Of a stretch of DNA of 21,112 nt, positions 6,001 through 9,000 are shown in pieces. The stretch is from a virus. The stretch lies in the UHGV virus genome UHGV-0072395, one strand, 5' to 3'. How positions within the stretch are numbered: the first letter of the stretch is position 1; the number at the start of each line of letters is the position of its first letter. A program made the position numbers.

Positions 6001-9000
6001 TGGTACCGCGTGCATGACCGATACCGAACGCGCCGGCGATAGCCCCCAGAATGACAGCCACCAGCCCGGCAATAATTTCTAAGCTCATCGTTCATCCCTT
6101 ACTGATTGCGAAACCTTGCCAACCATCTGGCTATGCGCACCTACCTCGGAAATCCCAATACCGCTGATACCGATGTATTCCTGTCCGGTCTGCTTATCCT
6201 GAATGAGGTAGACACCCCGCCAGTTTCCGTATGCAAGCTCATCGTGGAACTCAGACATTTTTGTCACGCCAATACGGTCTGCTTCTGCAGAAAGTTGGGA
6301 TGATACAGCCATCGTTGATTTGGCAGGTTCCGGGCCGGTATCACAGGCAGAAAGCAAGATTGCAAAGAGGAGAATGAATATCTTCATGGCTGCTTACTCT
6401 GATTAACCAAGCGGCCTACTACACCGCATGCAGCAATTAACGCCGTAATGGCGCCCATCGTTCCCGGAGGGATTGAAGCTTTGAGGTCCGGCGGCAGCTC
6501 CGCCCAGACCGTGGGGATTACCCCAGCCAGCACCAGCGCATGCATGGAGAACCAGCGCCAGGCACTTTTCCAGTCATCAACGAGTTTCATGATTTGACTT
6601 CCGCAACGATGCCGCCTGCGGCCTTGAATTTGGCAATGAGGTTGTCGGCCTTATGCTCAAACTGACCATAACCAGCGCCGGGGAGTGATGCCCAGATGTT
6701 GCTGCAGCGGTCGATGGCCTGCCGAACCTGCCCACTGTCAATTAGCGGCAGTGCTCCGCGCTCTTTAATCTGCTGCAGCGCGACCTGGTCCTGCGACGCC
6801 GGGGAGAAGTCTTTCAGCCCAAGCTGTTTACGGTATGCATCCCACCACTTCGACAAAAGCTGGTAGCGCCCAGCTGCGGTGGATTTGATACCCAGCTTTG
6901 GCAGGTTCACCAGCTTGCGAGGATGGTCGCTGTAATCAGTAAAGAGTGAACCGCCGACGATGACGTCGTACCCTTTGTTTTTGGTGGGCTGACCAGGCTT
7001 GTCTGTGCCTTCCGACCAGGCGAGCATGTCCAAAAACGCCCTTCGTTGCTTATTAATTTCCTGCATTTCCTACACCGCCTTTTTATAGTCGTCACCAAAA
7101 CCAGCGCGCAGATAACCCGGCGCTGATACCAGCCGCCTGCTGAAATTGTGATTGATTCATTAGTGCCTCAGTAGATCAACCAGCCGCGCTACATTGCCTC
7201 TTACGCTCAGCAGCACAACCAGGATCATGATATTGGCCCCGATGGTGGGCCACGTGGAGTAGGGGTAGATGCCGCACAGATACGCCAGCGGCACAGAGCT
7301 GTATATGACTGTTATCAGCCAGGCCAGCCGCGAGACCCACTTCCGATGCCGTGAGTCTCTACGGCGATAGAACATCAACGTAACCACGACCGCTGCGCAT
7401 AGCAGCGCATTGATGGTTGCAGTAGGATCATTTAGTACCACCGGAACCTCCCCGGCGCGTTATTAGCGCCACCAGCGAGCCAATATCCTGATTGTTCAGG
7501 AAGGTGAGTATTTTAACGGCCAATGCCGAAATGATTACGGCACCAATAGCATCAAGAGGTTTGTCGCTGTACCCCGTAAGGGCAGAGAGTTTGGAACCCA
7601 CCAGCCCGGAACACAGAACCCCAGCGATATAGGACACAACGAAATAAGCCATCCGCCTTGTTGCGCTTAAATCAGCTGCGGTCGCTATATAAAACACAGA
7701 ACCGGCAAATGCCCCGAACACAACGCCGTAATCAGTACCGGTTAACAGCCCGTATACACTCGCTCCCGTTAGGGCGCCACCAGCTAAGCCTGTGCCGGTT
7801 ATTGGTTCGGACATCGGTCCCCCTCAATTGCTGTGAATCCTCTCAAAACGAGGGGAAAGGAATAGGCGACCCTGTTAGCGATTGCGGGGTTAGGAATCCC
7901 TCAACCTATAACCTGCCTGGATTGGGTTATGAGCCCGTCAGACAGTGGGCCTGTATGAATGGCCGCCAGATGGATTTACGACAAAACACAGAGTGAGTGA
8001 CGTTCTGGCAACACAGTAAGAAGTTTGGATAACAGTGGCTTTCTTAATTTCCAATTGTTAAAAATTGCCACCCACCATAAATAGCAGTAAAAATATAACG
8101 AATTGTTTTATAAGTAATAATTTTGAATCCATAAGTAAAAATAAGAATCAATACAAGATTTTAAACTTATATTTACCAAAAAATTAGCTTTAAATCCTTA
8201 AAAAACAAAAAGAAACAGAAAACCATAAAATATGATTATTTGAGCATTATTAATCGAAATTATCGATTAGGATTTTTCTTACTCAAGTTATAAATTCCAC
8301 TCCATAAAAAAATCAATAACCCTTGGGAGAGACATTCTGTGTCAAATTTTCTGATGCTAGCGTTAGCTGTAATACTTTTTTTAGTTTCGTTAGTTTTTTT
8401 TGTTTCTTATCTGAAGGACAAGAAAAAGTTAAAAAATACATTTAAACGTCGCCGCTAACCTTTTCGCAGATTTCGGTTCGGGGTTGTTCTTTACCTAGTC
8501 AGGGTTCAGGTTTATCAGTAAATCAGATAAAAATGCGTGCGTAATATTCGCCCGCTGTTGATTAAATTTCATGGCCTCCACATCTGACGGGAATCAGTAC
8601 ACTTTTTGAAGAGGGAGAGCTGCTTAAGCTGGCAACCACCAGTGATTCGGATTTACTTATATAAAAGCGGTGATATCATCGCGTAGCCTGTATTGACACA
8701 CCAGGTGCCTAAACTTTGCATATCATCTTAATGCGCCCGCTAATTTGACCATCTCTGAGCGGGCTTTTTTCGTTTATACTGTACTCATAATGAAAAAGAC
8801 AATCCCCTGATTTCCCCTGTCACCTACCCGTGCAGGGGATTTTTTCACCCAAAGAAAAGGCCCGCCGCTGCGAGCCTGCCACTGCTTTTTCTTTGTTTGA
8901 GTTGGTTGTGGTGCCGGGTGCCTCCCGGTGAGCTTTTCTGCTGACCAACATTAGCTCGCGTTCAATACCTTCTAACTCTGCTGACATTAATGTCTTGCAT

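What the first reader, a model, noticed from the sequence alone, without database searches (positions are those of the whole stretch)
6085..6590. Two extra genes coupled between endolysin and the spanin-like pair
A 68-aa two-helix membrane protein and a 100-aa lipoprotein (lipobox LSAC) share overlapping stop and start codons with the endolysin and each other. Canonical lambdoid cassettes go from R straight to Rz/Rz1. These may be an alternative spanin set, a lysis regulator, or a Bor-like host-interaction lipoprotein.
Basis: partly seen in the sequence, partly recalled or inferred. Interest (0 to 1): 0.45.

Follow-up and report, generated by a model that had tools for sequence, protein, structure and literature searches.

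The report
Extra holin and inner-membrane lipoprotein genes
A prophage lysis gene cluster carries two real extra genes: a third holin-type membrane protein related to phage N4 gp62, and a lipoprotein of unknown function, predicted to stay in the inner membrane, that sits between the endolysin and spanin genes in many enterobacterial prophages.

Summary
On the minus strand a 68-aa gene (6590..6384) and a 100-aa lipoprotein gene (6387..6085) lie between a lambda-R-type endolysin and a two-part spanin pair. All three junctions are ATGA stop/start overlaps. Both genes are under purifying selection (dN/dS 0.08-0.14).

The 68-aa protein is Pfam DUF7940 (E 3e-24). Phage N4 gp62, shown experimentally to be a late-triggering, non-essential two-helix holin, matches the same family. 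It is therefore a third holin-family gene here, not a spanin.

The 100-aa protein belongs to an uncharacterised phage family (phrog_16585, no Pfam; 477 clusters). Its Asp at +2 is present in every enterobacterial-host member examined and predicts inner-membrane retention. Its periplasmic domain is a five-strand beta sheet with no solved relative. It fails the tests for o-spanin, u-spanin and Bor.

In 29 of 30 close relatives in IMG/VR it sits exactly between an endolysin and an i-spanin, across at least four cassette types. More distant relatives sit in nin or early regions, and the same cassette exists without it. Its function is unknown. I favour an accessory envelope role.

The cassette is mosaic: a 22-codon remnant of a displaced GH19 endolysin gene remains.

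The parts
7428..7814 (-). Putative holin, 128 aa (Pfam Phage_holin_8); first gene of the lysis cassette
   Evidence: PF16931 E 8.9e-35, phrog_198 'holin'
7160..7441 (-). Putative holin, 93 aa (Pfam Phage_holin_3_7)
   Evidence: PF05449 E 3.6e-20, phrog_217 'holin'
7092..7160 (-). 22-codon remnant of a displaced GH19 endolysin gene (MNQSQFQQAAGISAGLSARWFW*), a recombination scar
   Evidence: The translation aligns with the N-terminus of the GH19 lysozyme of Klebsiella phage ST13-OXA48phi12.2. DNA homology to GH19-type cassettes stops at 7098-7100.
6587..7066 (-). Soluble lambda-R-type endolysin (lytic transglycosylase), 159 aa, with no N-terminal hydrophobic (SAR) segment
   Evidence: PDB 1AM7 lambda lysozyme E 5.7e-84; phrog_90 endolysin E 2.3e-60
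6384..6590 (-). Extra gene 1: 68-aa two-helix membrane protein, Pfam DUF7940, of the N4 gp62 holin family; predicted N-in/C-in
   Evidence: PF25612 E 3.3e-24 (85.7 bits, cut-off 27) and phrog_1356 'holin'. N4 gp62 also hits PF25612 at E 6.5e-13. Pairwise BLASTP to gp62 gives 28% identity, E 2e-7. Hydropathy; dN/dS 0.076.
6085..6387 (-). Extra gene 2: 100-aa lipoprotein (lipobox LSAC, Cys15, Asp16 at +2), a ~23-residue low-confidence linker, then a five-strand beta domain (res 39-99) ending in the conserved tail D-E-R; phrog_16585, no Pfam family
   Evidence: phrog_16585 E 2.8e-23; no Pfam or NCBIfam hit; 477 clusters in the 50% library; AF2 pLDDT 84.8; dN/dS 0.10-0.14
6085..6102 (-). 3' end of the lipoprotein gene (GTAAGGGATGAACGATGA), which holds the Shine-Dalgarno-like AAGGGA and the ATG of the i-spanin gene
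   Evidence: The same motif precedes whichever gene follows the lipoprotein in 8 different contexts.
5813..6088 (-). i-spanin, 91 aa (N-terminal membrane helix, charged periplasmic part)
   Evidence: phrog_1026 'Rz-like spanin' E 4.2e-33
5671..5898 (-). o-spanin, 75 aa as read here (lipobox IGSC, Ala at +2, so outer membrane), overlapping the i-spanin gene
   Evidence: phrog_1275 'Rz-like spanin' E 2e-32; sequence

Best explanation
The block is part of a mosaic lambdoid-prophage lysis cassette, transcribed on the minus strand downstream of a Q antiterminator. The two 'extra' genes are independent additions, not a pair.

Gene 1 (68 aa) is a member of the DUF7940 / N4 gp62 family of two-helix, N-in/C-in holins. 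It most likely inserts in the inner membrane during late expression. There it acts as an accessory, late-triggering hole-former or modulator, alongside the two upstream holin-family proteins, helping to release the soluble lambda-R-type endolysin. It entered this cassette when a GH19 endolysin gene was replaced, which left a 22-codon scar.

Gene 2 (100 aa) is a lipoprotein that is exported, lipid-modified at Cys15 and, because of the conserved Asp at +2, kept in the outer leaflet of the inner membrane. It displays a small beta-sheet domain in the periplasm on a flexible linker. It is not part of the core lysis machinery. It is an accessory gene of a widespread phage family. [quoted passage not shown]

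Its neighbours (holins, endolysins, spanins) belong to several unrelated families, so its target is probably a host envelope component or an incoming phage, rather than a cassette partner. I favour a periplasmic binding or blocking role during lytic growth, of the superinfection-exclusion or envelope-protection type. A lysis-timing role is the main alternative.

Shown: gene reality, family memberships, topology signals, mosaic junctions and conservation of position. Inferred: holin activity, inner-membrane location, and the lipoprotein being dispensable and having an accessory role.
For: 68-aa gene:
- It matches PF25612 DUF7940 at E 3.3e-24 and phrog_1356 'holin'.
- N4 gp62 matches the same Pfam family at E 6.5e-13 and aligns directly with the 68-aa protein.
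- bioRxiv 10.1101/2025.11.12.688109 shows gp62 has two TMDs with both termini in the cytoplasm. It is non-essential, triggers irreversibly with CCCP, and partially complements a lambda S-null lysogen that carries the soluble lambda R endolysin. That is the same endolysin type as here.
- Family members sit beside endolysins of unrelated types. They lie after GH24 enzymes in Klebsiella phages RAH1 and GADU21, before a CHAP enzyme in Pseudomonas phage Ab26, and before the N4 muramidase.

Mosaic origin:
- The GH19 remnant is shown.
- Homology blocks end at gene boundaries.
- Relatives carry holins + GH19 + spanins with neither extra gene, or with the lipoprotein only.

Lipoprotein:
- 153 of 188 family members have a lipobox; the others have a membrane helix or a prepilin-type anchor.
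- Asp at +2 is present in every enterobacterial-host member examined, including virulent Drexlerviridae.
- 29 of 30 IMG/VR loci at >=75% identity have an endolysin immediately before it and an i-spanin starting at its stop. The flanks are GH19, SAR-GH24 or GH24 endolysins, and two i-spanin families.
- The 61-65% identity clade and more distant members lie in nin or early regions.
- There is no promoter- or terminator-like site inside the block.
Against: No experiment addresses either protein of this window. DUF7940 is formally a family of unknown function, and only one member (N4 gp62) has been tested, in a preprint. There it acted weakly and late, so it could be mainly a regulator.

With two other holin-family genes upstream, the 68-aa gene could be redundant or could act as an antiholin.

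For the lipoprotein, the very strong conservation of its slot between endolysin and i-spanin argues for a lysis-linked role rather than a mere passenger. The slot holds in 29/30 loci, across four cassette types, always with an ATGA overlap.

Late-operon expression without its own promoter is atypical for exclusion genes of temperate phages.

Inner-membrane retention rests on the E. coli '+2 rule' (established knowledge, not tested here), and the +3 residue (Thr) is not one of the strongest retention partners.

The claim that the cassette works without the lipoprotein is inferred from phage genomes that lack it, not from lysis assays.
Confidence: 0.6

Rival explanations
1. The lipoprotein is a genuine, previously unrecognised lysis-cassette component. 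It would be an inner-membrane-tethered periplasmic factor acting between cell-wall degradation and spanin-mediated membrane fusion. It could restrain or license spanins, or target another envelope linkage. Alternatively it could sense or delay lysis, like a periplasmic antiholin.
For: In 29 of 30 close homologues it sits exactly between endolysin and i-spanin, with three endolysin families and two i-spanin families, always with an ATGA overlap to the i-spanin. It is under strong purifying selection. It is co-inherited with the spanin block at the DNA level. Its overall architecture, an N-terminal anchor plus a ~70-aa periplasmic domain of ~100 aa total, recalls T4 RI (own knowledge). New lysis-cassette components are still being found, e.g. 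LysZ (10.1101/2025.06.24.661397).
Against: The same holin/GH19/spanin cassette exists without it in Klebsiella phage genomes. The 61-65% identical clade and virulent-phage homologues lie in nin or early regions, far from lysis genes. Its cassette partners are too diverse for a specific protein-protein contact. It has no similarity to any known lysis regulator.
Confidence: 0.22
2. The 68-aa protein is mainly an antiholin or timing regulator of the upstream holin pair, and not itself a hole-former.
For: The N4 preprint reports that deleting gp62 does not change lysis. It also reports that gp62 co-occurs with the pinholin gp63 in 60/65 genomes, and concludes this is 'consistent with a regulatory role'. 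Here, as in RAH1, other holin-family genes are present upstream.
Against: gp62 alone kills cells after CCCP and partially complements an S-null lambda lysogen, so it can form holes. In Septimatrevirus phages such as Ab26 it is the only annotated holin of a canonical cassette.
Confidence: 0.25
3. The two genes form an alternative spanin set (inner-membrane partner plus lipoprotein).
For: This rests only on the superficial pattern of a membrane protein followed by a lipoprotein, next to the spanin genes.
Against: The 68-aa protein has two helices and a 13-residue loop. The lipoprotein has Asp +2, no proline-rich region and no C-terminal helix, and lies upstream of the i-spanin. The two genes occur independently of each other in relatives. 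A bona fide spanin pair is present.
Confidence: 0.02
4. The lipoprotein is a Bor-like lysogenic-conversion factor (an outer-membrane, host-interaction or serum-resistance protein).
For: It is a small phage lipoprotein near the lysis genes, as bor is in lambda (own knowledge).
Against: It has no Pfam hit at all, hence none to the Bor family. No promoter-like site lies in the block and it is tightly coupled to late genes. The conserved Asp +2 predicts inner-membrane retention. Homologues occur in strictly virulent phages.
Confidence: 0.03

Closest known systems
Phage N4 gp62 holin (Pfam DUF7940 / phrog_1356)
   Same: Same Pfam family above the gathering score. Both have two membrane helices with a short proline-containing loop and the conserved W-K-x-x-W-x-W motif before helix 1. 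Both lie in a lysis cassette next to the endolysin and accompany another holin.
   Different: N4 gp62 is 109 aa with an N-terminal cytoplasmic extension and alternative starts; this protein is the 68-aa core. gp62 lies upstream of a SAR muramidase in a virulent podophage. Here the gene lies downstream of a soluble lambda-type transglycosylase in a lambdoid prophage. Identity is only 28%.
Lambda S-R-Rz/Rz1 lysis cassette
   Same: Q-dependent late operon. The endolysin is a close homologue of lambda R (E 5.7e-84 to 1AM7). A two-component spanin closes the cassette.
   Different: Two different holin families upstream in place of S. Two extra genes lie between R and the i-spanin. The spanins are of another family with overlapped rather than embedded architecture. 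There is a GH19 gene scar.
Klebsiella phages vB_Kpn_RAH1 and GADU21 (endolysin - DUF7940 - i-spanin order)
   Same: The same order and the same ATGA coupling of the DUF7940 gene to the endolysin gene. The RAH1 protein is 91-94% identical.
   Different: Their endolysins are GH24 lysozymes, unrelated to the one here. They have no lipoprotein gene, and their spanins differ.
o-spanins (Rz1 family) and the engineered inner-membrane allele imRz1
   Same: Lipoprotein signal peptide; encoded in the lysis cassette.
   Different: o-spanins must reach the outer membrane, and changing the sorting signal retains Rz1 in the inner membrane (PMC6139136). This protein naturally carries the retention residue. 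It is longer, is predicted to be folded, is not proline-rich and lies upstream of the i-spanin.
Membrane-tethered exclusion or regulatory proteins: T5 Llp, phi80/T1 Cor, TP-J34 Ltp, T4 Sp and RI (own knowledge)
   Same: Small phage proteins (about 60-140 aa) with an N-terminal anchor or signal and a periplasmic or extracytoplasmic domain. They are made during lytic growth, and some are encoded away from lysis genes.
   Different: No sequence or fold similarity was detected. Llp and Cor are outer-membrane lipoproteins. The resemblance is architectural only and membership was not established.
Pfam DUF6440 (small membrane-anchored proteins of Firmicutes and their phages)
   Same: Two of 129 family members hit DUF6440 weakly (best E 2.4e-4). 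The top BFVD fold match is a DUF6440 protein of Bacillus phage Grass (E 0.05). Both share an 'x-D-K-x-T-G-x-x-Y-[IL]' type hairpin (from memory for DUF6440).
   Different: The window protein itself does not hit DUF6440. The fold match is not significant. DUF6440 is itself uncharacterised, so the link says nothing about function.

Membership tests
DUF7940 / N4 gp62-type holin (68-aa protein) | Match to the Pfam PF25612 profile above the gathering score | tested here: met
   85.7 bits against a cut-off of 27, E 3.3e-24, full-length match 2-64 on profile 1-63. N4 gp62 itself scores 49.5 bits.
DUF7940 / N4 gp62-type holin (68-aa protein) | Two transmembrane helices, both termini cytoplasmic | tested here: met
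   Hydropathy peaks at residues 13-30 and 43-62. Net positive charge sits on the N-terminus (K2, K8, R12) and the C-terminus (R60, K65), and the loop is acidic (read from the sequence). This is a prediction only.
DUF7940 / N4 gp62-type holin (68-aa protein) | Encoded in a lysis cassette next to the endolysin | tested here: met
   ATGA overlap with the endolysin gene. The same holds in RAH1, GADU21, Ab26 and N4.
DUF7940 / N4 gp62-type holin (68-aa protein) | Holin activity: lethal membrane lesion on triggering, and release of endolysin | not testable with these tools
   Needs CCCP-triggering and complementation assays like those done for gp62.
o-spanin (100-aa lipoprotein) | Lipoprotein signal with outer-membrane sorting (no Asp at +2) | tested here: not met
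   The lipobox LSAC is present, but +2 is Asp. This holds in all enterobacterial-host homologues examined and in 56 of 153 lipobox-bearing members of the whole family.
o-spanin (100-aa lipoprotein) | Short, proline-rich, largely unstructured periplasmic part; gene embedded in, overlapping or just after the i-spanin gene | tested here: not met
   The processed protein, counted from the lipid Cys, is 86 residues with 2 Pro. A confident five-strand beta domain is predicted. The gene lies upstream of the i-spanin, and a true overlapped o-spanin is present.
u-spanin (T1 gp11 type) | Lipoprotein signal plus a C-terminal transmembrane helix | tested here: not met
   The C-terminus is hydrophilic (…KVSQSVRDER) and is modelled as a beta strand.
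Bor (Pfam Lambda_Bor) | Sequence match to the Bor family | tested here: not met
   No Pfam family at E <= 1 and none in NCBIfam.
Bor (Pfam Lambda_Bor) | Expression in the lysogen from its own promoter | tested here: inconclusive
   A simple consensus scan finds no promoter-like site in 6085-6590 on the minus strand, and the gene has no intergenic space. Transcription itself was not measured.
phrog_16585 (uncharacterised phage protein family) | Profile match | tested here: met
   E 2.8e-23 over residues 1-100.
GIY-YIG nuclease (the name RefSeq gives the 102-aa E. coli homologue WP_042346304.1 in one record) | Match to the GIY-YIG domain; cytoplasmic protein | tested here: not met
   No Pfam GIY-YIG hit in any of 129 family members at E <= 0.01. 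A signal peptide and lipobox are present. The predicted fold is all-beta. The same accession is 'hypothetical protein' in another record.
Known anti-phage defence proteins (PADLOC) | Full-length profile match | tested here: not met
   Only a 27-residue local hit to UzuA (E 9e-5) for the lipoprotein, and a marginal 2TM effector hit (E 0.018) for the 68-aa protein.

The most novel reading that the evidence does not exclude
The 100-aa protein represents a new class of lysis-cassette component in phages of Enterobacteriaceae. It would be a lipoprotein deliberately retained in the inner membrane, whose periplasmic beta domain acts on a host envelope structure or on the spanin step. That would make lysis in these phages at least a five-function process: holin, endolysin, this factor, i-spanin and o-spanin.
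Probability: 0.2. Interest if true: 0.75.

Novelty: new variant of a known kind. Interest (0 to 1): 0.45.

Why it matters
Lysis cassettes of Gram-negative phages are usually described as holin, endolysin and spanin. Two points here go beyond that description.

First, the N4 gp62 holin family was characterised only recently, in a virulent podophage. It also circulates as a single-gene module in lambdoid prophages of Klebsiella and Raoultella. There it sits downstream of a soluble lambda-type endolysin, alongside two other holin families. This gives a tractable lambda-like system for asking what a 'third holin' does.

Second, a conserved, strongly constrained lipoprotein with no Pfam family has a fixed address between endolysin and i-spanin across at least four unrelated cassette types. 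It is predicted to stay in the inner membrane.

If it affects lysis, it is a new lysis function. If it does not, it shows how an accessory gene can occupy an operon junction by carrying the next gene's ribosome-binding site and start codon. Either outcome can be tested with simple deletions and lysis curves.

Tried and rejected
1. I first thought the DUF7940 gene travelled as a module with lambda-R-type endolysins. This was rejected. The 'lysozyme R' genes next to it in RAH1 and GADU21 are GH24 enzymes with no similarity to the endolysin here. In Ab26 the neighbour is a CHAP enzyme.
3. A profile search of the PDB with the family alignment gave nothing below E 0.15.
4. Pfam, NCBIfam and PADLOC gave no usable hit for the lipoprotein.
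5. The GIY-YIG nuclease reading, prompted by a RefSeq product name and the GVY…YIG hairpin, was rejected (and the signal peptide).
6. Literature searches for DUF7940 (0 papers) and DUF6440 (1 irrelevant paper) gave nothing. A search for a lipoprotein between endolysin and spanin found no description of this gene.
7. No DNA-level homologue of the 68-aa gene exists in 5,426 complete E. coli genomes.
8. The context census for distant lipoprotein homologues (<60% identity) used a panel of enterobacterial lysis proteins only. 'No lysis gene nearby' for those 37 loci is therefore weak evidence.
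Full report
OBSERVATION

The window carries a lambdoid prophage segment read on the minus strand. The gene order is:
- DNA methylase, KilA-N and DUF968 genes, then the Q antiterminator (12736..12389);
- an oppositely oriented low-GC insert and a tRNA-Thr;
- the lysis genes and several small genes;
- the small and large terminase subunits.

Within the lysis cluster the order is:
- Phage_holin_8 (7814..7428);
- Phage_holin_3_7 (7441..7160);
- a 93-nt gap;
- a 159-aa endolysin (7066..6587);
- the 68-aa ORF (6590..6384);
- the 100-aa ORF (6387..6085);
- a 91-aa i-spanin (6088..5813);
- an overlapping o-spanin (5898..5671).

Reading the sequence directly, the endolysin/68-aa, 68-aa/100-aa and 100-aa/i-spanin junctions are all ATGA overlaps. 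The endolysin is a close homologue of lambda R (PDB 1AM7, E 5.7e-84). It has no N-terminal hydrophobic segment.

Both extra ORFs are constrained genes. dN/dS is 0.076 for the 68-aa gene against its homologue in Klebsiella phage vB_Kpn_RAH1. It is 0.10-0.14 for the lipoprotein gene against three homologues.

The exact 68-aa protein was read on 16 contigs. In all 8 places shown it lies between the 159-aa endolysin and the 100-aa lipoprotein. The holins and the 91-aa i-spanin are present wherever the contig reaches, except in L123, which lacks the i-spanin. The prophage DNA further downstream differs between places. A 100% identical lipoprotein is recorded from Raoultella planticola.

THE 68-AA GENE

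It matches Pfam DUF7940 over its full length (E 3.3e-24, 85.7 bits against a cut-off of 27). It also matches PHROG 1356, annotated 'holin'.

Hydropathy shows two segments, about residues 13-30 and 43-62, separated by a proline-containing acidic loop. Positive charges sit at both termini, which implies N-in/C-in (sequence).

tblastn finds relatives in 118 phage records. Most are annotated 'holin' and touch an endolysin gene. The neighbouring genes vary:
- In Klebsiella N4-like phage GADU21 and temperate phage RAH1 the order is endolysin, then DUF7940, then i-spanin, with the same ATGA coupling.
- In Pseudomonas phage Ab26 the DUF7940 gene is the only annotated holin of a holin-endolysin-Rz-Rz1 cassette.
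- I fetched the phage N4 lysis region. N4 gp62 also matches DUF7940 (E 6.5e-13) and aligns directly with the 68-aa protein (28% identity, E 2e-7).

A preprint (10.1101/2025.11.12.688109) characterises gp62:
- It has two TMDs with both termini cytoplasmic.
- It is dispensable for N4-cassette lysis.
- It kills cells irreversibly after CCCP.
- It partially and belatedly complements a lambda S-null lysogen carrying the soluble lambda R endolysin.
- It co-occurs with the pinholin gp63 in 60/65 genomes.

The authors call it a canonical holin with delayed triggering and a likely regulatory role.

The 68-aa protein is therefore best read as a third, accessory holin-family protein of this cassette. It is paired here with the same endolysin type against which gp62 was tested. 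Holin activity itself is inferred.

My first idea was that DUF7940 travels with lambda-R-type endolysins. That was wrong: the enzymes next to it in RAH1 and GADU21 are GH24 lysozymes unrelated to this one.

MOSAIC ORIGIN

Pairwise blastn shows that homology blocks end at gene boundaries:
- Klebsiella phage vB_VIPKPNMC05 matches 7859..6583 (holins plus endolysin) and stops at the endolysin stop codon.
- RAH1 matches only 6592..6384, the DUF7940 gene.
- E. coli prophages match 6351..5699 (lipoprotein plus spanins) and 7198..7098.
- Klebsiella phage ST13-OXA48phi12.2 matches the holins and the spanins only.

In that last phage the cassette is holin_8, holin_3_7, a GH19 lysozyme and the i-spanin, with neither extra gene. 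The gap after the second holin in the window encodes MNQSQFQQAAGISAGLSARWFW-stop. This is the N-terminus of that GH19 enzyme, MNQTQFQKAAGISAGLAARWYP…. So a GH19 gene was displaced by the lambda-type endolysin, leaving a 22-codon scar. The DUF7940 gene is a separate single-gene insertion.

THE 100-AA GENE

It has a canonical lipoprotein signal (MKIFILLFAILLSAC). It matches only phrog_16585, of unknown function, at E 2.8e-23. It has no Pfam, NCBIfam or meaningful PADLOC hit.

The family is large. A profile search of 1.84 billion representatives finds 477 clusters at E <= 0.001, nearly all about 100 aa.

Anchor and sorting signals:
- Of 188 sequences in hand, 153 have a lipobox. The rest have an N-terminal membrane helix or, in two cases, a prepilin-type methylation motif. 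Tethering to the membrane is therefore the conserved feature.
- Asp follows the lipid Cys in 56 of the 153.
- Asp follows the lipid Cys in every member from enterobacterial hosts that I examined. These include virulent Drexlerviridae (W011D, P817), Enterobacter phage MII_001 and the nin-region clade.
- Under the E. coli +2 rule (established knowledge; compare the inner-membrane-retained Rz1 allele cited in PMC6139136), this predicts retention in the inner membrane. The cassette's o-spanin has Ala at +2.

Structure and conserved residues:
- With a 129-sequence alignment AlphaFold2 gives pLDDT 84.8. The model has a low-confidence linker (residues 16-38) and a confident five-strand antiparallel sheet (39-99).
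- Conserved polar residues are D49, Y53, R57, D64, T67, S75, E81 and H85.
- The very C-terminal D-E-R is kept in at least 90% of the sequences in a 129-member alignment whose mean column identity is 22%.

WHERE THE LIPOPROTEIN GENE LIVES

Among close relatives the position is strikingly constant, with four cassette types seen:
- E. coli and Enterobacter prophages have holin_8, holin_3_7, GH19, lipoprotein, i-spanin, o-spanin.
- A Klebsiella michiganensis type has a lambda-S-like holin, GH24, lipoprotein and a 116-aa i-spanin.
- An Enterobacter type has an S21-like small holin, a SAR GH24 endolysin, lipoprotein and Rz/Rz1.
- The window has the lambda-type endolysin plus DUF7940 before the lipoprotein.

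I then scanned IMG/VR and scored the results with a panel of lysis and nin proteins. Of the 30 loci at >=75% identity, 29 have an endolysin ending just before the lipoprotein gene and an i-spanin starting at its stop codon. None of these has the lambda-R plus DUF7940 combination, so the window's version is a rarer variant.

In all contexts the gene ends …G-A-Y-G-A-R-M-R-A-T-G-A. In the lysis-slot copies this reads GTAAGGGATGA(A/G)(C/A)GATGA. The 3' end thus contains a Shine-Dalgarno-like AAGGGA and the ATG of whatever gene follows.

In other relatives the gene is not in a lysis cassette:
- The 61-65% identical clade lies in the nin region, between DnaB and NinG.
- Another homologue abuts NinX.
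- Homologues in virulent Drexlerviridae lie in arrays of small early genes.
- 37 distant IMG/VR loci show no panel lysis genes nearby. This is weak evidence, because the panel is enterobacterial.

No promoter- or terminator-like site lies inside 6085-6590.

INTERPRETATION

The two genes occur independently in relatives, so they are not a functional pair and not an alternative spanin set.

The lipoprotein fails each defining feature of o-spanins and u-spanins, and it is not Bor.

Its partners in the cassettes are too diverse for a specific contact with a phage lysis protein. They comprise four endolysin types, at least three holin sets and two i-spanin families. A host envelope target or an incoming phage is more likely.

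Two facts weigh against a core lysis role: the cassette exists without the gene in Klebsiella phage genomes, and the family also lives in nin and early regions.

I therefore favour an accessory periplasmic binding or blocking role during lytic growth, of the superinfection-exclusion or envelope-protection type. Architectural analogues are Ltp, Llp, Cor and Sp (own knowledge, not a tested membership).

The near-invariant slot between endolysin and i-spanin keeps a genuine lysis-linked function alive as the main rival (about 0.2).

NOVELTY AND VERDICT

The 68-aa gene is a new member of a recently characterised holin family, in an unusual setting.

The lipoprotein belongs to an undescribed family with a conserved address in lysis cassettes and an unusual inner-membrane sorting signal. 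I found no paper describing it.

Overall this is a new variant of a known kind of system. Its spanin and Bor readings are wrong. Its 'lysis regulator' reading is partly right.

Noticed in passing
window 7092-7160 (minus strand): A 22-codon remnant of a GH19 endolysin gene (MNQSQFQQAAGISAGLSARWFW*) starts at the stop of the second holin gene. It marks where the lambda-type endolysin replaced a GH19 enzyme.
   Followed up: yes
window 9956-12368 (plus strand): Two co-oriented genes on the opposite strand lie between the Q antiterminator and the lysis genes. They encode a 391-aa NA37 nucleoid-associated-like protein and a 417-aa protein with no Pfam hit. GC content is 0.30-0.37, against about 0.55 in the lysis genes. 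This looks like an acquired moron or a candidate defence pair.
   Followed up: partly
window 9120-9194 (minus strand): A tRNA-Thr (anticodon TGT) lies between Q and the holin genes. Related Klebsiella phage RAH1 has a tRNA-Gly in the equivalent place.
   Followed up: no
window 4242-4412 (minus strand), repeat at about 4318-4362: A (GGY)n tract encodes a run of about 17 prolines in a 56-aa ORF downstream of the lysis genes. It is a low-complexity tract of unknown meaning.
   Followed up: no
L021 2966-3274 against L020 2966-3274 (E. coli RefSeq records): The same protein accession WP_042346304.1, a homologue of the lipoprotein, is named 'GIY-YIG nuclease family protein' in one RefSeq record and 'hypothetical protein' in another. 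The nuclease name looks like a misannotation, probably triggered by the GVY…YIG hairpin.
   Followed up: yes
L001 2310-2486 (Klebsiella phage vB_VIPKPNMC05): This phage shares the holins, the GH19 scar and the lambda-type endolysin. After the endolysin it has a different 58-aa two-helix membrane protein (no Pfam hit), followed by genes on the other strand. No spanin genes are annotated there.
   Followed up: partly
window 6085-6102; also L004, L014, L020, L022, L040, L045, L050: The last codons of the lipoprotein gene (V-R-D-E-R-stop) double as the Shine-Dalgarno sequence and ATG of whichever gene follows. The C-terminal D-E-R is kept in at least 90% of a very divergent family. It is unclear whether this constraint acts on the protein or on translation.
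   Followed up: partly
L043 3281-3565 and L120 3420-3680: In related prophages a gene with the Acb2/Tad1 hairpin domain (anti-CBASS/Thoeris sponge family) lies just downstream of the spanin genes. The window has other small genes at that place: a 61-aa membrane protein at 5584..5399, and an 88-aa Cys-rich protein at 5307..5041 with no Pfam hit.
   Followed up: no
window 6085-6387, residues 47-73 of the protein: There is a local 27-residue match to the PADLOC UzuA model (E 9e-5). It covers the conserved hairpin only and remains unexplained.
   Followed up: no
proteins P0106, P0129 (family members): Two members of the lipoprotein family carry a prepilin-type N-terminal methylation motif in place of a lipobox. 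The periplasmic domain is therefore combined with at least three kinds of membrane anchor.
   Followed up: no
L123 133-1114: One metagenomic contig has the endolysin, DUF7940 and lipoprotein genes but no i-spanin after them; a YfbU-family gene on the other strand follows. This may be a decayed cassette.
   Followed up: no
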